This document shows, piece after piece, positions 49,872 to 64,000 of a stretch of DNA of 64,000 bases; the stretch's first letter is position 1, and each line of letters starts with the position of its first letter. A model generated the notes under the pieces. It was not told where the DNA came from and did no database searches. It was given only the letters and a program-made list of their open reading frames with translations. This DNA is from a virus, in the IMG/VR virus record IMGVR_UViG_3300031994_000007; one strand, 5' to 3'. The position numbers and the translations under genes were made by a program.

Positions 49872-50126
49872 ATGAAGTTGATAAAAGAAAATACTACTCG
49901 TAAAGTTGATACTCTCGGCAGAGTTAGTATTCCGAAAGGAATGCGAGATAGACTTGATATTAAAGATGGCGAAGAAATGGATTTTTATTTATTGGAAGAT
50001 GATTGCGGAAATCAATATGTTGCATTAACAAAACAAATTGAAGATAATAATAAATATATTGTTGCCGCAAATGTTTTAAAAGAACTTAATTTAGAAGTAC
50101 CAGAAAAACTAGAGGAATTAATTTGA
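49872..50126 (+). CDS. AbrB/MazE/SpoVT-family transcriptional regulator (84 aa)
   Basis: 'RKVDTLGRVSIPKGMRDRLDI' is a SpoVT-AbrB swapped-hairpin motif. RBS AAGAGG. TGA overlaps the next TTG start. Confidence 0.7.
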   Translation: MKLIKENTTRKVDTLGRVSIPKGMRDRLDIKDGEEMDFYLLEDDCGNQYVALTKQIEDNNKYIVAANVLKELNLEVPEKLEELI

Positions 50127-50467
50127 TTTATACTAGTTATTTTAGTAATTATAAAAATTTTCCTCAAAATTTTATTCCTATTGGAATAACTCGTTATCCT
50201 CCTAAAAATTGGAAAGGAATTAATTTAGATATATTAGCGCCAAGTGAAAAATTATTAAAAATGTACAAGAATAAAGAAATAGATGAATATATTTTTAAAA
50301 AAAGATATTTTAAAGAATTATCTGATAAAAATTTAACGCCGGCAAACGTGCGACAATAGCTTGAAAAATTTGGGAATATTATTCTATGTTGTTATGAAAA
50401 ATCAGATGATTTTTGTCATCGACATCTTTTGGTTGAATGGCTTGGCGAAGGATAGGAGTTACCGTAA
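50123..50467 (+). CDS. DUF488-family protein requiring TAG read-through (114 codons if both TAGs sense)
   Basis: N-term MIYT... and C-terminal 'LCCYEKSDDFCHRHLLVEWL' DUF488 signature. The signature lies downstream of the in-frame TAG at 50357. Second TAG at 50453, then TAA 50465. Confidence 0.6.
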
Positions 50468-50647
50468 AATCGAAATGAAAAATCATTTAGAAATTTTTTA
50501 GGTCAGACCAAATGATTTTGTGTATAAAAAAATTTTTTTATCCTGAAACTATACGCCCCCCATTTTATTCTCAGTAAATATCTACAAAAAGTATTGGATA
50601 TTTTTCTGAAAAAATTTTAATAGTAATGAATGAACACCCCTTATTTG

Positions 50648-50690
50648 CTCGCCCCGCTGACAGCCAAAGCGGGGCGAGTTTCGCATTGTT
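50648..50690 (+). terminator. GC-rich intrinsic terminator at the AT-rich/GC-richer boundary
   Basis: CTCGCCCCGCT-GACAGCCAA-AGCGGGGCGAG followed by TTTCGCATTGTTT. Confidence 0.55.
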
Positions 50691-50699
50691 TCCAGTTCG

Positions 50700-50885
50700 T
50701 AAATTTTTACGCCAAAATGTTACAAAAATGTAACAGACCGTTACATCCTGTAACCAAGAGGACTAAACATACATTTAATTAACTTTTATTACAAAATAGT
50801 TACAATAAATAACTCTATTGTAACCAAGAGTATCAAACACATGTTTAGTTATTTTAATTTACAAAATAGTAACAAATTAATTAAA
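50700..50885. repeat. iteron/operator-like region: GTTAC-N4-6-GTAAC inverted repeats and two ~68-bp direct repeats (GTAACCAAGAG...)
   Basis: gttacaaaaatgtaac and gttacatcctgtaac. Two units both begin gtaaccaagag and end ttacaaaatagt(t/a)aca. A third ccaagagag copy at about 50990. Confidence 0.5.
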
Positions 50886-51215
50886 AAAATGACAAATTAA
50901 AAAAATAAATTCTTTAATACACTAAATCGTAAAAAAGCCAGTCAAATACTAAATTAACATTATTCTTTAACACATTAAAGTAATAAAAAACCAAGAGAGA
51001 TAATAGTAACAATGTATCATCAAATAATTGCGCAATAGGCGAGATAGATAAAGAAGCTTCACAAAGCAAGGCAGAGACATTCGTCAAGCCTATACGTTAG
51101 CATAACACAACAAGACTATGAATAAACAATAAGACAAAAGAGTAGATAAACAACAAACTAAATACGATAGTAATAGTAATACATTAATTATTATAATAAT
51201 TACAAAAGAAAAACA

Positions 51216-51244
51216 TTGACAAACAGCACCACTTGTGGTATAAT
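51216..51244 (+). promoter_or_regulatory. consensus promoter with the -10 region flanked by a 9-bp inverted repeat (GCACCACTT/AAGTGGTGC); drives a short non-coding leader
   Basis: TTGACA-17-TATAAT. No RBS or ORF before the next promoter. Downstream small hairpins and a T-run (51250-51300). Confidence 0.5.
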
Positions 51245-51318
51245 AGAAGTGGTGCCTTGCGATAAGGTAAGCGGCGACCTTTGTTAAAAAAATAACAATC
51301 TTTTTTATAAAAAAACTC

Positions 51319-51347
51319 TTGACATTTGCCCGGGCTTGTGATATTAT
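51319..51347 (+). promoter_or_regulatory. class A promoter (TTGACA-17-TATTAT, GCCCGGGC box in spacer)
   Basis: Sequence consensus. Confidence 0.6.
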
Positions 51348-51396
51348 AATACCAGAAAGAGAGAGATAAATAAATTAAAAGAAAGAGGTAAACAAA

Positions 51397-51624
51397 ATGA
51401 AAGAGATTAAGTACGCAATTCACAATAACAAGAATGAGGTTGTTGATTGGGCTAACACCGAAGCAGAAGCAGAAGCACTTGTCAAGAAAGCCGCTAAAAG
51501 AGGCTGGAAACGCACCATTCACAAAATCGAATGGACGATCAATGAAAACCCTGAAATCTGGGAACTCGAAGGTGGCAAGGAAGATCCCACCAAGGTGGAA
51601 TGGGGCAATAATGAAGAGTGGTAA
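51397..51624 (+). CDS. hypothetical early protein (75 aa)
   Basis: RBS AGAGG. TAA stop embedded in terminator hairpin GAAGAGTGG-TAAAAA-CCACTCTTC+T7. Confidence 0.65.
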   Translation: MKEIKYAIHNNKNEVVDWANTEAEAEALVKKAAKRGWKRTIHKIEWTINENPEIWELEGGKEDPTKVEWGNNEEW

Positions 51625-51655
51625 AAACCACTCTTCTTTTTTTATAAAAAAACTC

Positions 51656-51684
51656 TTGACAGATTGGCACATCCATGTTATAAT
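51656..51684 (+). promoter_or_regulatory. promoter TTGACA-17-TATAAT driving structured RNA copy 1
   Basis: Sequence consensus. Confidence 0.6.
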
Positions 51685-51690
51685 ACAATC

Positions 51691-51738
51691 ACAGGTTGAG
51701 GGAAACCACACGCGGGTAGTCGAGGGGAGAGACTAACT
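51691..51738 (+). ncRNA. repeated structured RNA element, copy 1
   Basis: ACAGGTTGAGGGAAACCACACGCGGGTAGTCGAGGGGAGAGACTAACT. Covarying helices across the 7 copies. Confidence 0.45.
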
Positions 51739-51781
51739 AAATAGTAACAAAAGAAAAACAAAAAGTTTCTAAAAATAGTTG

Positions 51782-51810
51782 TTGACAAATAACATCCTTT
51801 GTGCTATACT
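51782..51810 (+). promoter_or_regulatory. promoter TTGACA-17-TATACT
   Basis: Sequence consensus. Confidence 0.55.
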
Positions 51811-51846
51811 ATAATCACAAAGGGAAGAGAAAAGGAGATAACAAAG

Positions 51847-52155
51847 ATGATTAACATTAGAACTATCAACAAACTCACTGAGAATGATGGACTTACTCTT
51901 AAAAATGGTAAGCTTATCACTTACAAAAGCGGTTGGCAGGTTGCCACCGAGGGCGTAGAGTGCCACACCGCACGGGAAGCCATTAACGCGGTTAAGGCTT
52001 ACGGCGGTAACTGTGGGGTGTGGTTCGCTGGTGGTATCTACTACATCGACAAAAGCCACAGAGTCAATACCAAGCGCGAGGCGCTTGAAATTGGCAAAGC
52101 TCATAATCAAATCTCTGTTCTGGGCTGGCGTAAAATGGTTTTAGCGTACTGCTAA
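51847..52155 (+). CDS. hypothetical early protein (102 aa)
   Basis: RBS AAAGGAGATAACAAAG-ATG. 14-bp-stem terminator (AAAATGGTTTTAGC/GCTAAAACCATTTT) overlapping the stop. Confidence 0.65.
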   Translation: MINIRTINKLTENDGLTLKNGKLITYKSGWQVATEGVECHTAREAINAVKAYGGNCGVWFAGGIYYIDKSHRVNTKREALEIGKAHNQISVLGWRKMVLAYC

Positions 52156-52183
52156 AACCATTTTATTTTTTATAAAAAAATAC

Positions 52184-52212
52184 TTGACAAGTCAATCTAT
52201 CTATGCTATAAT
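52184..52212 (+). promoter_or_regulatory. promoter TTGACA-17-TATAAT driving structured RNA copy 2
   Basis: Sequence consensus. Confidence 0.6.
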
Positions 52213-52218
52213 ACAATC

Positions 52219-52268
52219 ACAGGTTGAGGGAAACCGCACTCGGGCAGGAGAGGGGAAGGACTGACTTA
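52219..52268 (+). ncRNA. repeated structured RNA element, copy 2
   Basis: ACAGGTTGAGGGAAACCGCACTCGGGCAGGAGAGGGGAAGGACTGACTT. Confidence 0.45.
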
Positions 52269-52318
52269 AAAGTAACAAAAGAATGACAAAAAATTTTTCT
52301 ATTTTTTTTGAAAAAATG

Positions 52319-52347
52319 CTTGACAAATCGCCCGGGCTTTGCTATAA
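52319..52347 (+). promoter_or_regulatory. class A promoter TTGACA-aatcGCCCGGGCtttgc-TATAAT
   Basis: Sequence consensus. Confidence 0.6.
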
Positions 52348-52380
52348 TACAATCAGAAAGAACAAGGGAGGACAAAAAAA

Positions 52381-52782
52381 ATGACTTACTACTTCGACAT
52401 GGATGGCGTTCTGGCTGACTTCCACTCTACTTACACTGAGCGCGCACAGGCTTTGAGCCGCGACTATCTTGCCAATCTCGCCCCGTTCGTTGAGAATGTC
52501 AAGACTGTCCGGAACCTCATTGCTCACGGTGAAAAGGTTTACATTCTCACCAAGGCCGCTAACGATGATGCCAAGGCTGGCAAAATTGACTGGCTGGCAA
52601 AGTACATCCCGGAAATTACGGCAGAACAGTTTATTTGCATCGTAGGCTCTGGTCGCAAGGTTGATTACATTCGTGAAGCTGGCATTCTTGTGGATGATGA
52701 TATTAAGAACATTCGGCAGTGGGTCAAAGGTGGCTTTGAGGGCTATCTGGTAGAGACTAAAGGTGCCACGGTTATTCTCTAA
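52381..52782 (+). CDS. HAD-superfamily 5'(3')-deoxyribonucleotidase-like protein (133 aa)
   Basis: N-terminal 'YYFDMDGVLADF' (DxDGV HAD motif I) and NT5C-like layout. RBS GGGAGGA. Paralog at 63036. Followed by hairpin terminator 52763-52800. Confidence 0.65.
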   Translation: MTYYFDMDGVLADFHSTYTERAQALSRDYLANLAPFVENVKTVRNLIAHGEKVYILTKAANDDAKAGKIDWLAKYIPEITAEQFICIVGSGRKVDYIREAGILVDDDIKNIRQWVKGGFEGYLVETKGATVIL

Positions 52783-52916
52783 CCGTGGCGCTTTCTATTT
52801 TGCCCGGGCAAAATCGCCAGCTCCGAAAGGCCCCGGACTTCACCACGCTAAAGTGGTGAAGTAAAAAACGCGAATGATTGTTAAACAAATAACAATAAAA
52901 AATGTCCCGAAACTAC

Positions 52917-52945
52917 TTGACAATAGGCACAATGTGTGGTAGAAT
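52917..52945 (+). promoter_or_regulatory. promoter TTGACA-17-TAGAAT
   Basis: Sequence consensus. Confidence 0.5.
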
Positions 52946-52977
52946 ACAGTCACCAAGAGGAAAAGAGGTAGACAGCA

Positions 52978-53382
52978 ATGACAATTAGATTCGCAACGAC
53001 TGCTGATGCTATCCGCATTATTAGGGCTATACAGAATAAACGCATGGACTACAATACGCCGCAAGATGTGCGGGAAGATGTGAACGCGGGGCGGCTGATT
53101 GTAGCAGAGGAAAACGGCAAGCTTTTAGGGTCTGTAGCTGTCGTGTATAAAGTCCATCGTGGTTATTATGCTATCATGAGAATGTGCGTGTATTCAAAAA
53201 CCAGCAAGGGCAAAGGGGTAGCAAGTGCGTTAATTGACTACGTGTTAGCTCTTGGCCTTGGCACTTATGGTGCAACGCCTTGGAATGACAATCCGGCCAT
53301 GATTCACATTTTTGTTAAAAGAGGTTTTGAGTACCAATACACATTCAAAAATAAATACGATTTTTATAAAAAAGGGGCTTGA
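52978..53382 (+). CDS. GNAT-family N-acetyltransferase-like protein (134 aa)
   Basis: 'LGSVAV...MRMCVYSKTSKGKGVASALIDYVL' resembles the acetyl-CoA-binding motif A. The TGA stop is the TTGACA -35 of the next promoter. Confidence 0.55.
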   Translation: MTIRFATTADAIRIIRAIQNKRMDYNTPQDVREDVNAGRLIVAEENGKLLGSVAVVYKVHRGYYAIMRMCVYSKTSKGKGVASALIDYVLALGLGTYGATPWNDNPAMIHIFVKRGFEYQYTFKNKYDFYKKGA

Positions 53383-53407
53383 CAAGTTCAAGCCCTTATG
53401 TTATAAT
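53379..53407 (+). promoter_or_regulatory. class B promoter (TTGACA embedded in GGGGCTTGA...TCAAGCCC hairpin)-17-TATAAT
   Basis: Sequence consensus. Confidence 0.6.
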
Positions 53408-53436
53408 ACAATCACAAAAGAAAAGGAGATAAAAAA

Positions 53437-53607
53437 ATGTTTAATGTTTACTACATCCGCAATGGGTATGAACTCAACGCTAAATTTGAAAAAAGAGGAA
53501 GTGCTCTTTTATTTGCTCATAATTTTGTATCTATGTTAGGCGGAGATTATGCCGCTGTTACTGATACAGAAACAAATAAAACTATACAAGTTTATAGCAG
53601 ATACTAA
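53437..53607 (+). CDS. hypothetical early protein (56 aa)
   Basis: RBS AAAGGAGATAAAAAA-ATG. Terminator AGGCTGA-TTCAGCCT+T6 at 53608-53640. Confidence 0.6.
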   Translation: MFNVYYIRNGYELNAKFEKRGSALLFAHNFVSMLGGDYAAVTDTETNKTIQVYSRY

Positions 53608-53659
53608 AAAAGGCTGATTCAGCCTTTTTTATTTACATTAAAAAAAATGAAAAAAGTGC

Positions 53660-53688
53660 TTGACAAATCGCCCGGGCAATGTTATAAT
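53660..53688 (+). promoter_or_regulatory. class A promoter driving structured RNA copy 3
   Basis: TTGACA-aatcGCCCGGGCaatgt-TATAAT. Confidence 0.6.
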
Positions 53689-53694
53689 ACAATC

Positions 53695-53745
53695 ACAGGC
53701 TGAGGGAAGCCCCACGCGGGGAGACGAGGGGAGAGACTGACTTAA
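53695..53745 (+). ncRNA. repeated structured RNA element, copy 3
   Basis: ACAGGCTGAGGGAAGCCCCACGCGGGGAGACGAGGGGAGAGACTGACTT (compensatory changes relative to copies 1/2). Confidence 0.45.
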
Positions 53746-53795
53746 AAGTAACAAATTGATGACAAAAAAATTTTTAAAAAAAATGAAAAAAGTGC

Positions 53796-53824
53796 TTGAC
53801 AATTTGCCCGGGCTGTGCTATACT
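53796..53824 (+). promoter_or_regulatory. class A promoter TTGACA-17-TATACT
   Basis: Sequence consensus. Confidence 0.55.
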
Positions 53825-53876
53825 ATAATCAGAAAGAGGGAAGGAAAACCCAAATAAACCGGAAAGGAAGAAAAAG

Positions 53877-53984
53877 ATGGAATTTTACAGTATGGAACAG
53901 TTCGAGATTCTGGGCGACCTGATGGAAGACTATCAGGAGTGGCTGGACTTTGAAGAGGACATGAAAACTAATCCTTGGGGCTGA
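53877..53984 (+). CDS. very acidic micro-protein (35 aa)
   Basis: MEFYSMEQFEILGDLMEDYQEWLDFEEDMKTNPWG. RBS GGAAAGGAAG. Stop within hairpin CCTTGGGGCTGAAAAAAGCCCCAAGG. Confidence 0.5.
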   Translation: MEFYSMEQFEILGDLMEDYQEWLDFEEDMKTNPWG

Positions 53985-54014
53985 AAAAAGCCCCAAGGAA
54001 ATTAAAAAAAGTAC

Positions 54015-54043
54015 TTGACAAGTAAGACAAAGTATGTTATAAT
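54015..54043 (+). promoter_or_regulatory. promoter TTGACA-17-TATAAT
   Basis: Sequence consensus. Confidence 0.6.
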
Positions 54044-54075
54044 ACAACCAGAAAGAAAGAAAAGGAGATAAAAAA

Positions 54076-54246
54076 ATGTACATCGTAACTGCTTACAAGA
54101 TTTGGGAAGAGTTTGAAGACTACAACAAAGCCGAACTGTACTTCGCCGCTTTGAAACATGGTGGGTACAAGTATGTGGAACTGAAAAAGAAAACCACGAC
54201 CGACAAATACGAATACTTTGAAAGTATCAAAATCTTTGTAAAATAA
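54076..54246 (+). CDS. hypothetical early protein (56 aa)
   Basis: RBS AAAGGAGATAAAAAA-ATG. TAA stop. Confidence 0.6.
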   Translation: MYIVTAYKIWEEFEDYNKAELYFAALKHGGYKYVELKKKTTTDKYEYFESIKIFVK

Positions 54247-54259
54247 TTAAAAAAGGGGC

Positions 54260-54289
54260 TTGACAAATCAAGCCCCTATGTGATATAAT
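54260..54289 (+). promoter_or_regulatory. class B hairpin promoter
   Basis: GGGGCTTGACAAATCAAGCCCC...TATAAT. Confidence 0.55.
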
Positions 54290-54321
54290 AAAGGCACAAA
54301 AGAAAAAAGGAGATTAAAAAA

Positions 54322-54471
54322 ATGACTATTCGTGAATTTTATAATTGGGCTGTCGCTAATGATGTTGAGGATTTTTGGTTTGGTGAAATGTTCCCCAATG
54401 GGATTGAAGTCTTTGAAATTGAAGATTTCACAATCAATACTGATAATAATTTTGTTTCTATCAACAATTAA
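54322..54471 (+). CDS. hypothetical early protein (49 aa)
   Basis: RBS AAGGAGATTAAAAAA-ATG. Confidence 0.55.
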   Translation: MTIREFYNWAVANDVEDFWFGEMFPNGIEVFEIEDFTINTDNNFVSINN

Positions 54472-54492
54472 AAAAATAATTAAAAAAGGGGC

Positions 54493-54521
54493 TTGACAAG
54501 ACAAGCCCCTTGTGTTATAAT
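54493..54521 (+). promoter_or_regulatory. class B hairpin promoter
   Basis: GGGGCTTGACAAGACAAGCCCC-TTGTGT-TATAAT. Confidence 0.6.
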
Positions 54522-54553
54522 GTAATCACAAAAGAGAAAAGGAGATAAAAAAA

Positions 54554-54709
54554 ATGAAAATGATTCAGAACATCGAATGCGGTAACATCTTCCCCTATAC
54601 CCTTGAGGGATTGATCGAAATGAGAGAAGAAGCCCGTGAACTTTACGATATTGAAGATCCCACTAATGCGGTGAGCATTTCCGAATACTATCAAATTATC
54701 ACGCTGTAA
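54554..54709 (+). CDS. hypothetical early protein (51 aa)
   Basis: RBS AAAGGAGATAAAAAAA-ATG. Strong terminator TCACGCTGTAAAAAGCGTGA+T9 (54695-54730). Confidence 0.6.
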   Translation: MKMIQNIECGNIFPYTLEGLIEMREEARELYDIEDPTNAVSISEYYQIITL

Positions 54710-54738
54710 AAAGCGTGATTTTTTTTTTGAAAAAGTGC

Positions 54739-54767
54739 TTGACAAATCGCCCGGGCAATGCTATAAT
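54739..54767 (+). promoter_or_regulatory. class A promoter driving structured RNA copy 4
   Basis: TTGACA-aatcGCCCGGGCaatgc-TATAAT. Confidence 0.6.
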
Positions 54768-54773
54768 ACAATC

Positions 54774-54824
54774 ACAGGTTGAAGGAAACCGCACCGGGGC
54801 AGAGGAGGGGAGAGACTGACTTAA
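54774..54824 (+). ncRNA. repeated structured RNA element, copy 4
   Basis: ACAGGTTGAAGGAAACCGCACCGGGGCAGAGGAGGGGAGAGACTGACTT. Confidence 0.45.
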
Positions 54825-54863
54825 TAGTTACAAAAGAAAAACAAAAAATTTCTAAAAAAAACT

Positions 54864-54892
54864 CTTGACATTTGCCCGGTCTTGTGATATTA
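54864..54892 (+). promoter_or_regulatory. class A-like promoter TTGACA-17-TATTAT
   Basis: Spacer tttGCCCGGtCttgtga (one mismatch to the box). Confidence 0.55.
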
Positions 54893-54945
54893 TAATACCA
54901 GAAAGAGGGAAGGAAAACCCAATAAACCAGAAGGGAAAAGAAAAG

Positions 54946-58760: not shown

Positions 58761-58769
58761 AGCGGGGAC

Positions 58770-58951: not shown

Positions 58952-59067
58952 TTAACGCGGCGACCGCACCCAATCGGGGCGGTTCGAACTTTCGCACGGT
59001 AAAGCGTTGAAGAATTTTTCGGCCATTAAGTCGGGCAAAACTTTTAATGTTTTTTGCCCGAAACCTA

Positions 59068-59096
59068 TTGACAAATAAATACTCTTGTGTTATACT
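59068..59096 (+). promoter_or_regulatory. promoter TTGACA-17-TATACT
   Basis: Sequence consensus. Confidence 0.55.
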
Positions 59097-59145
59097 ATAA
59101 TTGTTCCAAGAGAGAACAACAAAAACAAAAAAGGAGAATACAACA

Positions 59146-59328
59146 ATGTATAATGTGCGGTTTACTGACACCATCCATGGTGAGATGGAAGAGAACTTTG
59201 ATAGCTATGATGCGGCTATGGAGTATTGGAATAGCTATGCTGATACCGAGTCTTGTGTGGCTGGTGTCATGATGGATTTGGATAATTGCGAAATTATCTG
59301 GAATTTTGACGACAGGGAGGCAGAATAA
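59146..59328 (+). CDS. acidic hypothetical early protein (60 aa)
   Basis: RBS AAAAGGAGAATACAACA-ATG. In frame with track ORF 59101..59328. Confidence 0.55.
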   Translation: MYNVRFTDTIHGEMEENFDSYDAAMEYWNSYADTESCVAGVMMDLDNCEIIWNFDDREAE

Positions 59329-59589
59329 ATGAAAAAGATTCTTGCTTTTGTCCTTGTTTTTGTTCTTATCCTATCGTTGGGCATAAGCGCTTATGCTTAT
59401 AATAAATCTATCTTTGATTTGAAATACCATTTCAATTATGCTTATGTAGATTTGTTAAATGGTACGACAGTTGAGGGTAAAGTCCAGAGTTGGAAAGACT
59501 GGGAAGATTCAGACATGTTGCAAGTCACTTTTGAGGATGGAGCTACTTATTATTCCCATTCTTCTAACATTATGCTTGTTTCAAAATAA
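59329..59589 (+). CDS. secreted/membrane-anchored small protein (86 aa) with N-terminal signal/TM segment
   Basis: MKKILAFVLVFVLILSLGISAYA... Start immediately follows the upstream TAA. RBS GGGAGG. Confidence 0.6.
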   Translation: MKKILAFVLVFVLILSLGISAYAYNKSIFDLKYHFNYAYVDLLNGTTVEGKVQSWKDWEDSDMLQVTFEDGATYYSHSSNIMLVSK

Positions 59590-59603
59590 TAATAAAAAAG
59601 GGC

Positions 59604-59632
59604 TTGACAAACAAGCCCTTTTGTGCTATTAT
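59604..59632 (+). promoter_or_regulatory. class B hairpin promoter
   Basis: AAGGGCTTGACAAACAAGCCCTT...TATTAT. Confidence 0.6.
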
Positions 59633-59662
59633 AATACCAGAAAAGGAAAGGGAAATAAAAAA

Positions 59663-59842
59663 ATGACTACTTACAGAGAACGCCTGCTTGACCGCATGAT
59701 TGCCCTTTATGGGCTTGAAAATCCAATTGTTATCGAGTTTGCCAATATGTGCGAAAAATATGGGGATAATTCTTGGAATGATGATTTTCTGCGGCTCTTG
59801 GTAGAAGCCCATGAAGCAGACCCAGTTTTTAAGGAAGATTAA
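59663..59842 (+). CDS. hypothetical early protein (59 aa)
   Basis: RBS AAAGGGAAATAAAAAA-ATG. Terminator GGAAGATT-AAAA-ATCTTCC. Confidence 0.55.
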   Translation: MTTYRERLLDRMIALYGLENPIVIEFANMCEKYGDNSWNDDFLRLLVEAHEADPVFKED

Positions 59843-59888
59843 AAATCTTCCTTAATCGCCCGGGCAGAAAAGTGACAAAAGAAAGACA

Positions 59889-59917
59889 TTGACAAACTAT
59901 AAATAATGTGTTATAAT
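59889..59917 (+). promoter_or_regulatory. promoter TTGACA-17-TATAAT
   Basis: Preceded by aatcGCCCGGGCagaaaag. Confidence 0.6.
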
Positions 59918-59948
59918 AAAGGCACAAAAAGAAAAGGAGAATAAAACA

Positions 59949-60386
59949 ATGAATAAAGTTTTCAACAAAATAAAGACATGGGCTGAACCTGTGAGCGATT
60001 GGTGGTTTTTTAATTGGGAAGCTGTTGTAGTTATAATTTTTATAGCGGCTGTGCTTATTGGGCTTGTGGTACTCGCTTTATGGGCTTCTGGTGCTTTTTA
60101 TGATGAAGTCGAAAATTATGACTTCACAGCGCAGGTGTATGATAAAGACCACTATACCACTCAATCAGTAAGTTATATTACTTCTGGTAAAACTCGCATT
60201 CCTGTATACCATACTCATCATCACTACAAAGTAATGTGGGAAGATGGTGGAGAACGTGGTACATTTGAAATTGGTGAAGACCATTATGATTTAATTAAAA
60301 TCGGGGACTTTATCAATGTTCATTGCTCTGTGAGGGCAGACAAGCAGGGTGAACTTCATTATTATTATAGTTTCAAGGGATATTAA
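59949..60386 (+). CDS. membrane protein (145 aa) with one TM helix and His-rich segment
   Basis: TM 'AVVVIIFIAAVLIGLVVLALWA'. RBS AAAAGGAGAATAAAACA-ATG. Terminator CAAGGGAT-ATTAAA-ATCCCTTG. Confidence 0.65.
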   Translation: MNKVFNKIKTWAEPVSDWWFFNWEAVVVIIFIAAVLIGLVVLALWASGAFYDEVENYDFTAQVYDKDHYTTQSVSYITSGKTRIPVYHTHHHYKVMWEDGGERGTFEIGEDHYDLIKIGDFINVHCSVRADKQGELHYYYSFKGY

Positions 60387-60415
60387 AATCCCTTGAAATT
60401 TTTTTCAAAAAGTGC

Positions 60416-60444
60416 TTGACAAGTCCAAAAGAGTATGTTATAAT
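60416..60444 (+). promoter_or_regulatory. promoter TTGACA-17-TATAAT
   Basis: Sequence consensus. Confidence 0.6.
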
Positions 60445-60477
60445 GAAGGCACAAAGAAAGAAAAGGAGAATAAAAAA

Positions 60478-60939
60478 ATGAATAACGAAGTAATTAAGGC
60501 AATGAATAAACAGCCCCGTAAAAAAAGCAATTTTCAAAAGTGGTGGGAACAAAACGATTATAAAGTTTGGCGTGTCGTGCTGTTCCCCATTTGGATTTAT
60601 GTGTGGAGCAGAGAAAAAATTAAAACTTATCTTAATTCCCGTACAGTATGGAATGAAAACAGAGCGAATGAAATACTTAGTTATTACATTCCCCGCTGTG
60701 CTCGTTGGAATAATGAAAATAAAACCTTTTATTATTTTAATAATGGGTATGGATGGGAAATGGGCTTTGCTAAAAAGTATTTGAAAATTAAAGACCGTAG
60801 ATTTTGGAATCTTTATGCGTGTTGGCGTATTCGTGATTATCTTATCAAAAATTTTGAACTGGAAGGGTTCACCAAAGAAATTGGTAACTGCTACGATGGC
60901 TGGACTGAAATCACTTTCAGAATGAAAACAGAGGATTAA
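60478..60939 (+). CDS. Trp/aromatic-rich hypothetical early protein (153 aa)
   Basis: RBS AAAAGGAGAATAAAAAA-ATG. In frame with track ORF 60412..60939. Terminator ACAGAGGATT-A5-ATCCTCTGT+T7. Confidence 0.65.
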   Translation: MNNEVIKAMNKQPRKKSNFQKWWEQNDYKVWRVVLFPIWIYVWSREKIKTYLNSRTVWNENRANEILSYYIPRCARWNNENKTFYYFNNGYGWEMGFAKKYLKIKDRRFWNLYACWRIRDYLIKNFELEGFTKEIGNCYDGWTEITFRMKTED

Positions 60940-60968
60940 AAAATCCTCTGTTTTTTTCAAAAAAGGGC

Positions 60969-60997
60969 TTGACAAATCGCCCGGGCTATGTTATATT
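60969..60997 (+). promoter_or_regulatory. class A promoter driving structured RNA copy 7 (variant)
   Basis: TTGACA-aatcGCCCGGGCtatgt-TATATT. Confidence 0.55.
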
Positions 60998-61003
60998 ATA
61001 GTC

Positions 61004-61050
61004 ACAGGCGGAGGGACGCCACACTCGGGTAGTAGAGGGGGAGGCTTTTT
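61004..61050 (+). ncRNA. repeated structured RNA element, copy 7 (divergent 3' end with T-run)
   Basis: ACAGGCGGAGGGACGCCACACTCGGGTAGTAGAGGGGGAGGCTTTTTTT. Confidence 0.4.
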
Positions 61051-61119
61051 TTATTTGGAGAATGTGGGGGAGGTTGCCCGGGCGGCGGCAAAAGAAAAAC
61101 AAAAAATTACAAAAAAAGA

Positions 61120-61148
61120 CATTGACAAATAACCAGAAGTATGCTATT
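61120..61148 (+). promoter_or_regulatory. promoter TTGACA-17-TATTAT
   Basis: Preceded by gttGCCCGGGCggcggc. Confidence 0.55.
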
Positions 61149-61184
61149 ATAATACCAGAAAGAGAGATAAAGGAGGACAAAAAA

Positions 61185-61373
61185 ATGTATTTCGTTCTTG
61201 ATATTGTCAGTAATAAAACGGTCGCAATGACCGCTTTTAGAGACGCGGCGGAAATTATCGCCGCAAACTTCCCCGCAAAGTGCGTAGTTCGCTACGCCGC
61301 TGAAATAGTTAGCGGGTATTCTAAAGACAGCCTGTTCTTTGAGAATGAGCAGGAAATGAAAAAAGGGGCTTGA
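61185..61373 (+). CDS. hypothetical early protein (62 aa)
   Basis: RBS AAAGGAGGACAAAAAA-ATG. KKGA-TGA stop inside the next -35. Confidence 0.55.
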   Translation: MYFVLDIVSNKTVAMTAFRDAAEIIAANFPAKCVVRYAAEIVSGYSKDSLFFENEQEMKKGA

Positions 61374-61398
61374 CAAAATAGCCCCTTTATGATACAAT
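61370..61398 (+). promoter_or_regulatory. class B-like promoter TTGACA-17-TACAAT
   Basis: GGGGCTTGACAAAATAGCCCC. Confidence 0.55.
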
Positions 61399-61428
61399 AC
61401 CAATAGAAACAGAAAAGGAGAAATACAA

Positions 61429-61548
61429 ATGATGTATGACATTTATCCCTGCGATCTTGACCCATTCGGGGAGTGCCCGAAGCATTGTCAGGATTGCGCC
61501 CATTGCGTGGGCTGGTTCATGGATGAACCAGAGGACGAAGAAAATTAA
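61429..61548 (+). CDS. Cys-rich micro-protein (39 aa; putative zinc-binding)
   Basis: MMYDIYPCDLDPFGECPKHCQDCAHCVGWFMDEPEDEEN. RBS AAAAGGAGAAATACAA-ATG. Confidence 0.5.
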   Translation: MMYDIYPCDLDPFGECPKHCQDCAHCVGWFMDEPEDEEN

Positions 61549-61557
61549 AAAAGGGGC

Positions 61558-61586
61558 TTGACAAATACAACCCCCTGTGCTATAAT
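61558..61586 (+). promoter_or_regulatory. class B-like promoter TTGACA-17-TATAAT
   Basis: GGGGCTTGACAAATACAACCCCC. Confidence 0.55.
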
Positions 61587-61613
61587 AAAGACACAATAAA
61601 GGAGATGAAAACA

Positions 61614-61667
61614 ATGAAAGCACGACCGCCGCCCGCAAGGGCATGTGATTGGATTACTAATAATTAG
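61614..61667 (+). CDS. 17-aa micro-ORF (MKARPPPARACDWITNN) terminated by TAG
   Basis: RBS AAAGGAGATGAAAACA-ATG. The only TAG-terminated ORF in the early array. If TAG is read through it extends 9 codons to a TAA overlapping the next micro-ORF ATG (TAATG). Confidence 0.35.
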   Translation: MKARPPPARACDWITNN

Positions 61668-61687
61668 ATAGTAATGTATAGGAGAAT

Positions 61688-61827
61688 AAACTAATGAATA
61701 GAATTAGAGATGAGACGAAAACCTTTTAAGGTTTTCTAATAGATAGTATAGAATAGAAAGATAATAGAAAATGAGGAAAAACTAATGAATAGAATTAGAG
61801 ATGAGACTAAAACCTTTTAAGGTTTTT
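61688..61827 (+). repeat. tandem duplicated micro-ORF units (2 x ~48 bp, ~92 bp apart), each RBS + MNRIRDETKTF + stop-overlapping hairpin
   Basis: Units at 61688-61735 and 61780-61827 differ by 1 nt. ORFs at 61694..61729 and 61785..61820. Hairpin AAAACCTTTTAAGGTTTT. The surrounding 230 nt is unusually dense in TAG triplets. Confidence 0.5.
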
Positions 61828-61942
61828 GATGAATAGAATAGAATGATAGTAATAAAATAGAATAGAAGTAAGTGCCAAGGGGCGGCTCGGTTGGAGGATG
61901 GAAGTAGCCGAAAAAATTTTTCAAAAAATTTTGAAAAACCCC

Positions 61943-61971
61943 TTGACAAATGCCCGGGCATTTGTTATAAT
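61943..61971 (+). promoter_or_regulatory. class A promoter TTGACA-aatGCCCGGGCatttgt-TATAAT
   Basis: Sequence consensus. Confidence 0.6.
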
Positions 61972-62005
61972 ACAATCACAAAGAGAAAACAAGGAGAAAA
62001 AGAAA

Positions 62006-62119
62006 ATGATGACTAACGATTATTGGGAAGCTCACGAAGCCGAATGGCTTGCCGCTCAGGAGTGCATGGAGTGGCTCCTGTTTGAGGCCGACATGGCCAC
62101 TGACCCCTACCGGGATTAA
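62006..62119 (+). CDS. acidic micro-protein (37 aa)
   Basis: MMTNDYWEAHEAEWLAAQECMEWLLFEADMATDPYRD. RBS AAGGAGAAAAAGAAA-ATG. Hairpin CCCTACCGGG-attaaaa-CCCGGTAGGG overlaps the stop. Confidence 0.5.
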   Translation: MMTNDYWEAHEAEWLAAQECMEWLLFEADMATDPYRD

Positions 62120-62140
62120 AACCCGGTAGGGAGAAAATAC

Positions 62141-62169
62141 TTGACAAGTCCAAAAGTGTATGATATAAT
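62141..62169 (+). promoter_or_regulatory. promoter TTGACA-17-TATAAT
   Basis: Sequence consensus. Confidence 0.6.
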
Positions 62170-62198
62170 TAAGGCACAAAAACAAAGGAGATAAAAAA

Positions 62199-62516
62199 AT
62201 GAGAACTTGTAAAAACTGCGGTTGTTATCTTCCAGATAATTGGACTACTTGCCCCGCATGTTTTATGGATGAAAAGCAAGTTGAACATAAAACAGAAAAA
62301 CAGATTGATTCACACAAAGAGTCTTTTCTTAATAACATTTGCCGCGTTGATACATTCCATAAAAACAATACTAAAACATCAAATGTTTTTGCCTCTTATG
62401 AATACGCTATTAGATTTGCTCATTATATAGCTTGCGAATCTGACATAGCAATGGTTATTGTAACTGACATTCCCAGTGGGAAAATAATTGAAAAACTTTC
62501 TCGTAAAGGGTATTGA
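62199..62516 (+). CDS. zinc-ribbon protein (105 aa; C-x2-C-x10-C-x2-C N-terminus)
   Basis: MRTCKNCGCYLPDNWTTCPACF... RBS AAAGGAGATAAAAAA-ATG. TGA stop inside the next -35 (tatTGAcaa). Confidence 0.6.
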   Translation: MRTCKNCGCYLPDNWTTCPACFMDEKQVEHKTEKQIDSHKESFLNNICRVDTFHKNNTKTSNVFASYEYAIRFAHYIACESDIAMVIVTDIPSGKIIEKLSRKGY

Positions 62517-62541
62517 CAAATCCAAAAGCGTATGGTATAAT
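62513..62541 (+). promoter_or_regulatory. promoter TTGACA-17-TATAAT
   Basis: Sequence consensus. Confidence 0.6.
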
Positions 62542-62572
62542 TAAGGCACAAAAGGAAAAGGAGATAAGAAAA

Positions 62573-62713
62573 ATGTACGAATACGAAATTCGCTATCTGG
62601 CAACTGGTGAGACTGATTTTCTGTATGGATATTCTCGTCAGGACTTGGCAAGACGCTATCCCGAAATCCCAACCGATACTTATGTTATCATCTGCCGCGA
62701 GTACATCGACTGA
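62573..62713 (+). CDS. hypothetical early protein (46 aa)
   Basis: RBS AAAAGGAGATAAGAAAA-ATG. In frame with track ORF 62513..62713. Confidence 0.5.
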   Translation: MYEYEIRYLATGETDFLYGYSRQDLARRYPEIPTDTYVIICREYID

Positions 62714-62794
62714 TGGCTCGCGGTTTTCTATTCATTTTTTTAGAATGGTTATGCATTGTATAAGCATACATTATAAATGAATTTTATACGGGCT

Positions 62795-62835
62795 ATTTTC
62801 GGCGCGCCGCTCCTGGCCGACGCGGCGCGTTTTTC
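62795..62835 (+). terminator. GC-rich intrinsic terminator
   Basis: CGCGCCGC-tcctggccga-GCGGCGCG followed by TTTTT. Contains GGCGCGCC. Confidence 0.6.
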
Positions 62836-62974
62836 GCTGTAATAATTCTGCCACAATTTTGTCATCAATTTGTAACACATTCGCACAAACAGGCAAAGTC
62901 CCGAAATGAATAATTATACAATGAATAATGAATAAAAATTCAAAAAATTTTTTTGAAAAAATTAAAAAAAAGTG

Positions 62975-63003
62975 TTGACAAACGCCCGGGCATCTGCTAT
63001 AAT
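62975..63003 (+). promoter_or_regulatory. class A promoter TTGACA-aacGCCCGGGCatctgc-TATAAT
   Basis: Sequence consensus. Confidence 0.6.
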
Positions 63004-63035
63004 CATAGACAGAAAGGGACAAGGAGGATAAAAAA

Positions 63036-63443
63036 ATGACTAACTACTACTTCGACATGGACGGCGTTCTGGCTGACTTCCACGGTGCTTATACTGATAG
63101 GGCACAGGCTTTTCAGTATGATTTTATTGCTAACCTTGCCCCATTTACCGCAAATGTTGAACTTGCAAAGTCCCTCATAGCACAGGGCAATCGGGTTTAT
63201 ATCTCCACCATTGCCGCAAGTGAAGAAGCAAAGCAGGCGAAAATTGATTGGCTTGCTAAGTATCTTCCGGAAATCCCCAGCTATCGTATCATTATCATTG
63301 TTGGGCATGGTAACAAGGCCGAACACATGAGAACAAAGACCGGAATCCTCATTGACGACAAGCGCGCCAACTGCCGCCAATGGGAAAAGGCCGGACAGCG
63401 TGCGGTGTGGCTGGAAATCAAGGGGGGAGCAATCTCCCTTTGA
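63036..63443 (+). CDS. HAD-superfamily 5'(3')-deoxyribonucleotidase-like protein, paralog 2 (135 aa)
   Basis: Shares 'YYFDMDGVLADFH..Y..RAQA...ANLAPF...AKIDWLAKY(I/L)PEI' with 52381..52782 (~50% identity). RBS AAGGAGGATAAAAAA-ATG. Confidence 0.65.
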   Translation: MTNYYFDMDGVLADFHGAYTDRAQAFQYDFIANLAPFTANVELAKSLIAQGNRVYISTIAASEEAKQAKIDWLAKYLPEIPSYRIIIIVGHGNKAEHMRTKTGILIDDKRANCRQWEKAGQRAVWLEIKGGAISL

Positions 63444-63477
63444 TTCTAAAAAAAATTGTTTTGTAACTATTTTGTAG

Positions 63478-63506
63478 TTGATTTTGCCCGGGCTATTTGT
63501 TATAAT
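63478..63506 (+). promoter_or_regulatory. class A-like promoter TTGATT-ttGCCCGGGCtatttgt-TATAAT
   Basis: Sequence consensus. Confidence 0.5.
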
Positions 63507-63537
63507 TAAGCCAGAAAGAAACAAGGAGGACAAAAAA

Positions 63538-63972
63538 ATGTACGCTATCACTTATTCCAACATCATTCACTGCAAGAAATCCGGCGACACCGCACAGCAG
63601 ACCGCAAACTTCTACCACACCGGACGGACGGAAAGACACGACGATCGCCCCTGGTATGAGGGAAGTGATATTGAAGAAATCGCCGCAAGCGTCAAGTCTA
63701 ATGGTTTTAGTCTTGCTGATGGCCGCACCAATCACGGCGACACGCTGGAAGAAAAATGGAACGATTTTCGTACCCGCACCGCTTCCAATCTCTTTATTTA
63801 TGTAACCAATAATTTTACCGGTTATTACATGAATATTGATGAGTTTGAAGAGTTTGTGAAAATGTGGTGCTATGTTAGCACAGAATCCGCAAAAAACGGC
63901 GGGCGGTCTAAAATTAGATGTAAGCACGAAAGCCAAAAAATGCGGAATTGGTTAGCTCACAGGGCGGGATAA
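63538..63972 (+). CDS. hypothetical early protein (144 aa)
   Basis: RBS AAGGAGGACAAAAAA-ATG. In frame with track ORF 63478..63972. Hairpin GCGGGATAAAAACCCGC after the stop. Confidence 0.6.
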   Translation: MYAITYSNIIHCKKSGDTAQQTANFYHTGRTERHDDRPWYEGSDIEEIAASVKSNGFSLADGRTNHGDTLEEKWNDFRTRTASNLFIYVTNNFTGYYMNIDEFEEFVKMWCYVSTESAKNGGRSKIRCKHESQKMRNWLAHRAG

Positions 63973-64000
63973 AAACCCGCCCAAAACGAAAAAAAGTTCT

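What the first reader, a model, noticed from the sequence alone, without database searches (positions are those of the whole stretch)
49872..64000. Late genes are amber-recoded while the early array uses standard-code stops
The roughly 37 plus-strand small ORFs downstream of 51.2 kb end with TAA or TGA and contain no in-frame TAG. The single exception is a 17-aa micro-ORF that ends in TAG. The TAG-laden late genes sit on the opposite strand. This fits the model in which stop-codon recoding gates late-gene translation until a phage suppressor is expressed. The plus-strand DUF488 gene (50123-50467) driven by the boundary promoter does need TAG read-through, so it would behave as a middle/late gene or be made as a truncated early form.
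Basis: partly seen in the sequence, partly recalled or inferred. Interest (0 to 1): 0.75.

Follow-up and report, generated by a model that had tools for sequence, protein, structure and literature searches.

The report
TAG-free early genes, amber-recoded late genes
This is part of a large gut or rumen phage whose structural genes read the stop codon TAG as glutamine while its block of small early genes avoids TAG altogether, a two-code layout already described for other recoded phages.

Summary
On the minus strand (1-49760), 28 packaging and virion ORFs carry 335 in-frame TAG in 16,482 codons, and none ends in TAG. TAG aligns with Gln in non-recoded relatives, so this is genetic code 15. On the plus strand (51.2-64 kb), 33 Shine-Dalgarno-led small ORFs (2,600 codons) have no in-frame TAG and stop only at TAA or TGA. 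About 38 in-frame TAG are expected from their composition, or 26 from the late Gln usage.

The 17-aa TAG-terminated "ORF" is probably part of a conserved non-coding RNA rather than a gene. DUF488 does need TAG read-through.

TAG is one feature of a wider split. The early block has 39 near-consensus extended -10 sigma-70 promoters, one about every 309 bp, and GC3 of 0.44. The late block has GC3 of 0.15 and almost no such promoters.

The "code switch" reading is the published model (Borges et al.; Mgcod; phAss-1), so this is a new member of a known kind. Gating itself is not shown:
- No suppressor tRNA lies in the window or in any flank I could reach.
- The major capsid gene is TAG-free.
- TAG positions drift among relatives like a synonymous codon.

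The parts
1..49760 (-). Late packaging and virion module read in code 15 (TAG = Gln). It has 28 ORFs, GC 0.23-0.34 and GC3 0.147.
   Evidence: Long ORFs appear only when TAG is read as sense. There are 335 in-frame TAG in 16,482 codons. TAG aligns with Q in 131 of 246 residues of non-recoded relatives, against a 4% background.
48702..49760 (-). First gene of the minus-strand block. It is labelled 'sigma factor' in PHROGs, ends in a C-terminal zinc ribbon and has 3 in-frame TAG.
45259..47022 (-). Terminase large subunit, 13 in-frame TAG.
   Evidence: phrog_2 and phrog_15503; TAG count.
43242..44900 (-). Portal protein, 8 in-frame TAG.
   Evidence: phrog_2739, E 4.7e-81.
39528..40769 (-). Major-capsid-like protein with no TAG among its 16 Gln codons. 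The neighbouring ORF 40773-41603 is also TAG-free.
   Evidence: phrog_4088. tblastn hits 'major capsid protein' of Bacillus phages and phAss-1 at 49% identity. Codon counts.
23096..32482 (-). Tape measure protein, 3128 aa, 84 in-frame TAG.
   Evidence: phrog_4211 and other tape-measure families; ORF. phAss-1 has a 3149-aa tape measure protein (PMC10607447).
49782..49832 (.). Back-to-back sigma-70-type promoters with overlapping -35 boxes. The plus-strand one is TTGACA-17-TATAAT at 49804-49832. The minus-strand one is TTGTCA-17-TATAAT, running from 49810 to 49782.
49872..50126 (+). AbrB/MazE-type (SpoVT-AbrB) DNA-binding protein with no TAG and GC3 0.15. Its stop overlaps the DUF488 start.
   Evidence: Pfam PF04014, E 1e-7; GC3. 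Homologs in L007, L008 and L045 contain in-frame stops.
50123..50467 (+). DUF488 gene with in-frame TAG at 50357-50359 and 50453-50455. It has late-type codon usage behind a sigma-70-type promoter.
   Evidence: Pfam PF22751 DUF488-N3a matches residues 18-109, spanning the first TAG. Sequence; GC3 0.157.
50470..51200 (.). Non-coding spacer where strand and composition switch. It holds a terminator hairpin at 50648-50678 and two 57-nt direct repeats (50749 and 50819) with GTTACA/TGTAAC motifs.
51216..64000 (+). Early-type array with GC 0.37-0.42 and GC3 0.435. It has 39 promoters scoring at least 11/12 against TTGACA-N17-TGnTATAAT, with mean spacing 309 bp. Each promoter precedes an AAGGAG Shine-Dalgarno sequence and a small ORF (33 ORFs of 35-153 aa). 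There is no in-frame TAG, and all stops are TAA or TGA. The array continues at least 10 kb past the window end.
   Evidence: 26 of 33 ORFs have translated homologs in relatives. Against L003 there are 285 synonymous and 141 amino-acid-changing codon differences. Pfam finds NT5C twice and GNAT. Continuation shown in L082.
51685..51752 (+). Copy 1 of 7 of a roughly 45-68-nt pseudoknotted RNA motif. Each copy starts just after the -10 box of its own consensus promoter. The other copies are at 52213, 53689, 54768, 55438, 57944 and 60998.
   Evidence: Alignments A2 and A3. All 8 proposed pairs form in all 11 copies, and 4 pairs show compensatory changes; 0 of 500 shuffles reach this. No Rfam match. 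The covariance model finds it only in the closest relatives.
61590..61900 (+). Conserved TAG-rich non-coding stretch downstream of promoter 61558-61586. It contains the 17-aa TAG-terminated micro-ORF (61614-61667) and two identical 11-aa mini-ORFs.
   Evidence: Sequence. 92-99% nucleotide identity in L096, but the peptide is not conserved. Fold z-score -3.1. 17 TAG in 236 nt against 6.4 +/- 2.3 in shuffles.

Best explanation
The window comes from a large phage (the closest long contig is about 240 kb) of the SPbeta/EF1/phAss-1-related group, and its genome is written in two codon dialects.

A plus-strand array of small genes is built for immediate expression by the unmodified host. Almost every gene has its own consensus sigma-70 extended -10 promoter and a strong Shine-Dalgarno sequence. 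Codons are moderately GC-rich, and TAG is not used as a sense codon; only one probably non-coding 17-codon reading frame ends in TAG.

The opposite-strand packaging and virion module is extremely AT-rich. It lacks such promoters and uses TAG for 46% of its glutamine codons, in effect replacing CAG.

The most likely logic is temporal compatibility. Early genes are kept free of TAG by selection, because they are translated before a phage suppressor tRNA(CUA) and other phage tRNAs have built up. Once suppression is available, CAG-to-TAG changes become near-neutral in the AT-biased late genes and accumulate, except in the most highly expressed ones. Delayed translation of TAG-bearing genes (DUF488, the sigma-like protein, terminase, portal, tail) then follows as a consequence.

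SHOWN: the code (TAG = Gln), the partition, the promoter array, the codon split, and its recurrence in relatives.

INFERRED: the timing, the existence and early expression of the suppressor in this phage, and selection as the reason for the lack of TAG in early genes.
For: - Code 15.
- Partition: 0 TAG in 2,600 early codons against 335 in 16,482 late codons. Gln codons CAA/CAG/TAG are 20/36/0 early and 358/32/335 late. About 38 in-frame TAG are expected from early composition.
- Promoters: 39 on the early strand; only 3 weaker ones in the late block, all at its start.
- GC3 is 0.435 early and 0.147 late; Leu TTA is 12% early and 73% late.
- The phage tRNAs that appear just after the array decode A-ending codons favoured in late genes: Leu-UAA, Lys-UUU and Glu-UUC.
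- The same layout occurs in independent contigs. 26 of 33 relatives' loci are recoded downstream of the sigma-like gene, and 22 of those 26 have a GC-richer, promoter-bearing divergent array.
- Homologs of the early ORFs in relatives show 6 stops in 18,900 aligned residues.
- The highly expressed capsid genes have no TAG among 29 Gln codons, as expected if suppression is less efficient than normal decoding.
- TAG sites turn over among Gln sites. Where the window has TAG, relatives have TAG at 21-24% of aligned Gln codons; where it has CAA, 13-15%.
- In the complete phAss-1 genome the three annotated tRNA-Sup-CTA genes lie on the strand that carries the only sigma-70 consensus promoters. One lies in the tRNA cluster that follows the small-ORF block. 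TAG density falls from 10-33 per 1000 codons (GC3 0.23-0.29) to about 1.5 per 1000 (GC3 above 0.6).
- Published model: Borges et al., bioRxiv 10.1101/2021.08.26.457843.
Against: - No tRNA at all lies in the window. No tRNA(CUA) lies in the 10 kb downstream or in any fetched locus of relatives.
- There are no expression data, so 'early' rests on promoter consensus alone.
- Avoidance of TAG as a stop is only marginally below the low baseline of non-recoded relatives.
- The 10-point GC difference is itself unexplained. It could reflect something other than tRNA supply.
Confidence: 0.6

Rival explanations
1. Recoding is an actively selected gate. TAG codons are kept in late and regulatory genes specifically to block their translation until the suppressor appears. 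The TAG-bearing sigma-like gene, transcribed from a host-type promoter, would act as the relay that turns on late transcription only after the code switch.
For: - The sigma-like gene sits behind an 11/12 sigma-70-type promoter and has 3 TAG.
- 26 of 33 relatives also have 1-6 TAG in it.
- DUF488 shows the same combination of a host-type promoter and in-frame TAG.
- Late genes have no sigma-70 consensus promoters.
- Borges et al. propose this regulatory role.
Against: - TAG positions in the sigma-like gene are not conserved; they move among Gln sites.
- With TAG at 20-46% of Gln codons, a gene with 17 Gln codons is expected to carry several by chance.
- The capsid genes are TAG-free.
- In phAss-1, TAG density tracks GC3 continuously rather than marking a discrete gene class.
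Confidence: 0.25
2. The early array is foreign or mosaic DNA, made of cassettes recently acquired from standard-code, GC-richer sources. Its lack of TAG and its higher GC would then reflect origin, not timing.
For: - GC jumps by about 10 points at 51.2 kb.
- None of 10 array ORFs tested matches any PHROG family.
- Array genes diverge much faster than the late block: 37% of codons differ from L003, while the sigma-like protein is 97% identical.
Against: - Promoters, 5' leaders and Shine-Dalgarno sequences are near-identical across about 39 units, which argues for in-genome maintenance.
- The same GC and TAG split occurs in many relatives, including phAss-1.
- Purifying selection is evident: 285 synonymous against 141 non-synonymous codon differences.
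- TAG is absent well beyond what composition predicts.
Confidence: 0.1
3. Assembly artefact: the window is a chimera that joins a recoded phage to a non-recoded one at about 50-51 kb.
For: Strand, GC, GC skew and code all change abruptly at one point.
Against: The junction recurs in dozens of independent contigs from different samples. In each, the sigma-like gene lies next to a divergent promoter array; L003, L006, L007 and many 140-190 kb contigs show this. An ENA contig also continues the array beyond the window.
Confidence: 0.02

Closest known systems
Block-wise stop-codon-recoded phages (code 15 or code 4): Borges et al. 2021/2022; crAss-like phages of Yutin et al. 2021 (PMC7886860); Mgcod 'isocoding blocks' (bioRxiv 10.1101/2022.06.29.495998)
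   Same: In-frame TAG is read as Gln in structural and packaging genes. The early and replication-side genes are compatible with the standard code. The genome is AT-rich and depleted in TAG stops. A model of a temporal code switch through a phage suppressor tRNA has been proposed for these phages.
   Different: - The host is probably a Firmicute, judging from extended -10 promoters and an AbrB-type regulator, and the lineage is SPbeta/EF1-like rather than Crassvirales or Lak.
- The suppressor tRNA has not been located here.
- I did not find the strong early/late GC3 split (0.44 against 0.15) or the one-promoter-per-gene array described in the passages I read of Borges et al. and of the phAss-1 paper.
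phAss-1 and the proposed Phassvirus group (OQ749652; PMC10607447), NCBI 'Caudoviricetes code 15 clade'
   Same: - It is the best full-length match among the annotated phage records: capsid protein 49% identical over 83% of the query (a 12-kb unannotated human-gut fragment, MT836163.1, scores 55%).
- TAG is read as Gln.
- The tape measure protein is about 3100 aa.
- Late genes face a long opposite-strand block ordered early, then tRNAs, then replication.
- The GC gradient and the strand restriction of sigma-70 promoters are the same.
   Different: - The relationship is distant: no megablast match, and protein identity of roughly 50%.
- The genome is probably about 240 kb, against 136 kb for phAss-1.
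- phAss-1 lacks the multi-copy RNA motif.
SPO1 host-takeover module (Stewart et al. 1998; summarised in PMC6873191)
   Same: A terminal block of about 12-13 kb holds some two dozen small early genes. They have strong host-type promoters and ribosome-binding sites and are presumed to act on the host.
   Different: - No sequence homology: none of 10 array ORFs tested hits any PHROG family.
- The array is at least 23 kb with about 60 promoters, close to one per gene, rather than about a dozen operons.
- Terminal redundancy and host shut-off are untested.
Phage tRNA sets matched to late-gene codon usage (known from T4-like and other large phages; from my own knowledge)
   Same: Phage tRNAs for A-ending codons (Leu-UAA, Lys-UUU, Glu-UUC) lie just after the early array. 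The late genes are strongly biased to those same codons.
   Different: Here the effect is extreme and is combined with a reassigned stop codon. The full tRNA set of this phage was not seen.

Membership tests
Code-15 (TAG->Gln) recoded phage with mixed-code genome | Conserved phage genes are broken by in-frame TAG under the standard code and become full-length when TAG is read as sense. | tested here: met
   ORF totals are 3,597 aa under the standard code and 17,991 aa with TAG as sense on the minus strand. Terminase, portal and tape measure are recovered.
Code-15 (TAG->Gln) recoded phage with mixed-code genome | TAG positions align with glutamine in homologs. | tested here: met
   131 of 246 aligned residues in non-recoded relatives are Q, against a 4% background.
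Code-15 (TAG->Gln) recoded phage with mixed-code genome | A block of genes stays compatible with the standard code, with the recoded codon concentrated in structural or late genes. | tested here: met
   0 TAG in 2,600 early codons against 335 in 16,482 late codons. The 16 ORFs beyond the window are also free of TAG stops.
Code-15 (TAG->Gln) recoded phage with mixed-code genome | The phage encodes a suppressor tRNA(CUA) or other code-change machinery. | tested here: inconclusive
   None was found in the 64-kb window, in 10 kb downstream, or in about 120 fetched loci. About 170 kb of the presumed genome was not available. phAss-1 has three.
Code-15 (TAG->Gln) recoded phage with mixed-code genome | The host uses the standard code. 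| not testable with these tools
   The host is unknown. Only the promoter type and the AbrB-like regulator hint at a Firmicute.
phAss-1-related group (proposed family containing Phassvirus, Enterococcus phage EF1) | Homology of signature proteins (capsid, portal, terminase). | tested here: met
   Capsid tblastn gives 49% identity to phAss-1 and 39% to the Enterococcus EF1/VRE9 phages. The PHROG families are shared with these phages.
phAss-1-related group (proposed family containing Phassvirus, Enterococcus phage EF1) | Genus-level nucleotide similarity to phAss-1. | tested here: not met
   No megablast match for 49000-64000 in the phage collection, and capsid identity is only 49%. The phage is therefore not a Phassvirus; at most it shares a family.
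SPO1-type host-takeover module | A cluster of small genes with strong host-sigma promoters and strong ribosome-binding sites. | tested here: met
   39 promoters scoring at least 11/12, and AAGGAG 8-10 nt before the ATG in most units.
SPO1-type host-takeover module | Sequence homology to SPO1 gp37-gp60. | tested here: not met
   None of the 10 largest unannotated array ORFs matches any PHROG family. Pfam finds only NT5C, GNAT and weak DUF matches.
SPO1-type host-takeover module | Early expression, host shut-off activity, and location in a terminal redundancy. | not testable with these tools
   These need infection time courses and mapping of the genome ends.
Phage late sigma factor (for 48702-49760) | Recognisable sigma-70 region 2 and region 4 domains. 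| tested here: inconclusive

The most novel reading that the evidence does not exclude
TAG is only the visible tip of a two-dialect genome. In this reading the whole late proteome is written in codons (TTA, AAA, GAA, TAG and others) that the host decodes poorly. It is unlocked by a phage tRNA set that is expressed from the same consensus promoters as the early array. A TAG-bearing regulator, transcribed by the host polymerase, relays 'translation has been reprogrammed' into late transcription. The early array would also deploy lineage-specific structured RNAs with an unknown role in takeover: a 7-copy pseudoknot motif and a TAG-rich RNA of about 300 nt.
Probability: 0.2. Interest if true: 0.6.

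Novelty: new member of a known kind. Interest (0 to 1): 0.3.

Why it matters
The window gives a very clean natural example of a mixed-code phage. The code boundary coincides with a strand switch, a change of promoter class and a threefold change in GC3. That makes it a good test bed for asking whether recoding regulates timing or merely rides on AT-biased drift once a suppressor exists.

In practice, such genomes are badly mis-annotated under the standard code. The early array is a dense source of orphan host-directed proteins and of two unclassified RNAs. The concept itself is already published, so the finding adds an example and some quantitative detail, not a new principle.

Tried and rejected
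SUPPRESSOR tRNA HUNT. All of these failed to find a tRNA(CUA):
- ARAGORN and Rfam on the window.
- The 10 kb past the window end, from an ENA contig; this gave only Leu-UAA and Lys-UUU.
- 45 IMG/VR loci around the sigma-like gene.
- A walk along two 174-175 kb relatives.
- Metagenome loci downstream of the array.
- An exonuclease-based step further out.
- An exact tRNA-Lys search.

OTHER SEARCHES THAT LED NOWHERE.
- An exact-match search for the window in IMG/VR found nothing.
- Megablast of the early region against GenBank phages found nothing.

TAG SITE CONSERVATION. I tested whether TAG sites are conserved as a sign of selection. They are only weakly conserved.

TAG AS A STOP. I tested whether recoded relatives avoid TAG stops in early arrays more than non-recoded relatives do. 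The result was 13 of 299 against 5 of 77, which does not discriminate.

REJECTED IDEAS.
- A chimeric assembly is ruled out, because the junction recurs in many contigs.
- The 17-aa TAG-terminated ORF is not a real exception, because its peptide is not conserved.
- I considered a tRNA-like stretch in L082 (about 14634-14715) as a cryptic suppressor. It has no CUA anticodon loop, and neither ARAGORN nor Rfam calls it.

Full report
WHAT THE WINDOW IS

The composition changes sharply near 50-51 kb. GC is 0.23-0.34 with negative GC skew from 1 to 50 kb. It is 0.37-0.42 with positive GC and AT skew from 52 to 64 kb.

Under the standard code the minus strand has few long ORFs: 3,597 aa in ORFs of at least 150 aa. 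With TAG read as sense it has 17,991 aa. These resolve into 28 contiguous ORFs from 49760 down to 1. PHROG profiles identify several of them:
- terminase large subunit (45259-47022)
- a homing endonuclease (44888-45277)
- portal (43242-44900)
- a capsid-type protein (39528-40769)
- a virion structural protein (34389-35462)
- a 3128-aa tape measure protein (23096-32482)

The best full-length match among annotated phage records is phAss-1 (OQ749652), with the capsid protein 49% identical; a 12-kb unannotated human-gut fragment (MT836163.1) scores slightly higher at 55%. Enterococcus EF1-like and SPbeta-like phages follow. phAss-1 is filed by NCBI under 'Caudoviricetes code 15 clade'. It was described as a TAG-to-Gln phage with three suppressor tRNAs and 36 tRNAs in all (PMC10607447).

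THE CODE

I aligned the window's late proteins to relatives that are not recoded. 131 of 246 residues opposite a window TAG are Gln, against a background Gln frequency of 4%. TAG is therefore read as Gln (code 15).

CHECKING THE OBSERVATION

Late ORFs hold 16,482 codons with 335 in-frame TAG (2.0%). No late ORF ends in TAG.

In the plus-strand block I find 33 ORFs of at least 35 codons that start at an ATG (one at 54973 has only a weak, close-set GGAG). Most have AAGGAG 8-10 nt upstream. These 33 ORFs hold 2,600 codons with no in-frame TAG. Their stops are 21 TAA and 12 TGA. They carry 47 out-of-frame TAG.

ORFs called under the standard code cannot contain TAG by definition, so I applied non-circular tests:
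- Reading TAG as sense does not lengthen any of them. The extra in-frame TAG lie in the 5' leaders.
- Their position-specific base composition predicts about 38 in-frame TAG.
- Late genes use CAA/CAG/TAG at 358/32/335 and early genes at 20/36/0. At the late TAG share of 46%, 26 TAG would be expected among the 56 early Gln codons.

The exclusion of TAG as a sense codon is therefore highly significant.

The exclusion of TAG as a stop is much weaker. Non-recoded relatives use TAG for only 5 of 77 early-array stops. Adding the 16 ORFs in the next 10 kb of the same phage gives 0 of 49, P about 0.04.

ARE THE EARLY ORFs REAL GENES?

26 of 33 have translated homologs in related contigs, with only 6 stops in 18,900 aligned residues. 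Against the closest relative (L003) there are 285 synonymous and 141 amino-acid-changing codon differences. Pfam recognises two NT5C-type nucleotidases and a GNAT acetyltransferase. None of the ten largest unannotated ORFs matches a PHROG family.

THE EXCEPTION

The 17-aa ORF at 61614-61667 does end in TAG. In relative L096 the surrounding 300 nt are 92-99% identical, yet that ORF stops at a TGA after 10 codons and carries a 1-nt indel. The stretch is predicted to close by long-range pairing between the 'ORF' and a segment near 61880 (z = -3.1). It is more likely a non-coding RNA than a gene.

DUF488 AND THE BOUNDARY

A 12/12 promoter at 49804-49832 drives an AbrB/MazE-type gene (49872-50126) and the overlapping DUF488 gene (50123-50467). 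The Pfam DUF488-N3a match spans residues 18-109, so it crosses the TAG at codon 79. Both genes have late-type GC3 of about 0.15. AbrB homologs in some relatives contain in-frame stops.

On the other strand, an 11/12 promoter whose -35 box overlaps the first one precedes the first minus-strand gene (48702-49760), which has 3 TAG. These genes form a class that is transcribed from host-type promoters but written in the late dialect.

WHAT ELSE DISTINGUISHES THE TWO BLOCKS

The plus-strand block holds 39 promoters that match TTGACA-N17-TATAAT at 11 or 12 of 12 positions. All have the TG extension, and their mean spacing is 309 bp. The whole 49.7-kb late block has three 11/12 matches on its coding strand, all within 2.8 kb of its start. 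The promoter, leader and Shine-Dalgarno units form large repeat families.

Codon usage differs throughout, not only at TAG:

| Measure | Early | Late |
|---|---|---|
| GC3 | 0.435 | 0.147 |
| Leu TTA | 12% | 73% |
| Leu CTG | 26% | 0% |

The array and its promoters continue for at least 10 kb past the window end in an ENA contig of the same phage. There the first tRNA genes appear, Leu-UAA and Lys-UUU. Close relatives add Glu-UUC. All of these decode A-ending codons that dominate the late genes.

RELATIVES

A search with the sigma-like protein returned 80 IMG/VR loci. Of 33 non-redundant loci with enough flank, 26 are recoded downstream, and 22 of those 26 also have a GC-richer divergent array with consensus promoters. 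In all 26 the sigma-like gene carries 1-6 TAG.

The complete phAss-1 genome shows the same picture as a gradient:
- Consensus sigma-70 promoters occur only on the early/middle strand.
- GC3 falls from about 0.65 in the small-ORF block to about 0.25 in the tail genes.
- TAG density rises over the same span from about 1.5 to 10-33 per 1000 codons.
- The annotated tRNA-Sup-CTA genes sit on the early/middle strand. One lies inside the tRNA cluster that follows the small-ORF block.

GATE OR DRIFT?

Several results argue that TAG behaves mainly as a tolerated synonymous codon:
- The capsid gene and its neighbour have no TAG among 29 Gln codons.
- Where the window has TAG, relatives below 80% identity have TAG at 21-24% of aligned Gln codons. 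Where the window has CAA the figure is 13-15%.
- TAG positions in the sigma-like gene are not conserved.
- TAG has almost exactly replaced CAG in the AT-rich block.
- Late genes lack host-type promoters anyway.

Against pure drift, TAG is fully excluded from the early array, which composition does not explain. This shows that these genes are read in a cell where TAG is not reliably Gln.

I therefore favour 'temporal compatibility plus permitted drift', with delayed translation as a consequence. I give lower weight to recoding as a purpose-built gate.

THE MISSING PIECE

No tRNA lies in the window. No tRNA(CUA) lies in any flank I could reach. The closest long contig is 241 kb, so most of the genome was not examined.

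COMPARISON WITH WHAT IS KNOWN

The two-code layout and the temporal-switch model are published (Borges et al.; Mgcod; phAss-1). The array works like the SPO1 host-takeover module, with small early genes and strong host-type promoters and ribosome-binding sites (PMC6873191). It shares no detectable homology with it.

VERDICT

This is a new member of a known kind, of modest interest. The promoter array, the GC3 split and two unclassified RNAs are the most distinctive extras.

Noticed in passing
window 51685-51752, 52213-52280, 53689-53756, 54768-54835, 55438-55505, 57944-58011, 60998-61062 (+): Seven copies of a compact RNA motif, each starting right after the -10 box of its own consensus promoter and containing no ORF. 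The next promoter and gene follow 40-60 nt later. The proposed fold is a hairpin with a GARGGA loop plus two crossing helices (a pseudoknot). All 8 proposed pairs form in all 11 copies, and 4 pairs show compensatory changes. There is no Rfam match. The covariance model finds the motif only in the closest relatives, L003, L097, L099 and L103. Its function is unknown; my speculative ideas are a put-like antiterminator, a protein sponge (it has two GGA motifs) or a riboswitch-like element.
   Followed up: partly
window 61590-61900 (+): A stretch of about 300 nt driven by its own promoter. It is much better conserved at the DNA level (92-99% against L096) than the neighbouring genes. It has 17 TAG in 236 nt, mostly AUAG or AUAGAA, against 6.4 +/- 2.3 in shuffles; this is the densest TAG window on the plus strand. 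It holds two identical 11-aa mini-ORFs (MNRIRDETKTF), and its ends are predicted to pair. A TAG-rich early RNA in a TAG-recoded phage is unexplained.
   Followed up: partly
window 51216-64000 and L082 10153-20153: Extreme promoter density. The window has 39 near-consensus extended -10 promoters in 12.8 kb, and about 20 more lie in the next 10 kb. That is nearly one per small gene, and many genes are also followed by intrinsic terminators. The early genes evolve much faster than the late ones: 37% of codons differ from L003, while the sigma-like protein is 97% identical.
   Followed up: partly
window 39528-41603 (-): The capsid-type gene and the ORF upstream of it have no TAG among 29 Gln codons, whereas neighbouring late genes use TAG for 30-65% of Gln codons. 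This suggests selection against TAG in the most highly expressed late genes.
   Followed up: yes
window 50470-51200: A 700-bp non-coding spacer at the strand and composition switch. It has a strong terminator hairpin (50648-50678), two 57-nt direct repeats (50749 and 50819) and repeated GTTACA/TGTAAC and AATAGTAACAA motifs. It could be an origin, a packaging site, a genome end or a regulatory region.
   Followed up: no
window 47018-49760 (-): Three consecutive proteins share a CxxC...CxxC zinc-ribbon motif. It is C-terminal in 48702-49760 and N-terminal in 48321-48659 and 47018-48247. They lie just upstream of the terminase large subunit, and one of them may be the small terminase.
   Followed up: no
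L082 10750-12100 and 13990-16200 (10 kb past the window end): Promoter-driven stretches without ORFs, none matching Rfam at E up to 0.01 apart from the two tRNAs:
- a 1.3-kb region with GC 0.52
- a tandem pair of 34-nt repeats (ACCGAATCTGGTTGAAATAACCCAGTAGTTAGAGA) at about 14485-14565
- a tRNA-like stretch with a 7-bp acceptor-like stem (about 14634-14715) that ARAGORN does not call
   Followed up: no
window 52381-52782, 63036-63443; L082 12751-13194: At least three paralogous NT5C-type (HAD) 5'-deoxynucleotidase genes lie within the early array. Homologs occur in early arrays of distant relatives (L025, L044).
   Followed up: no
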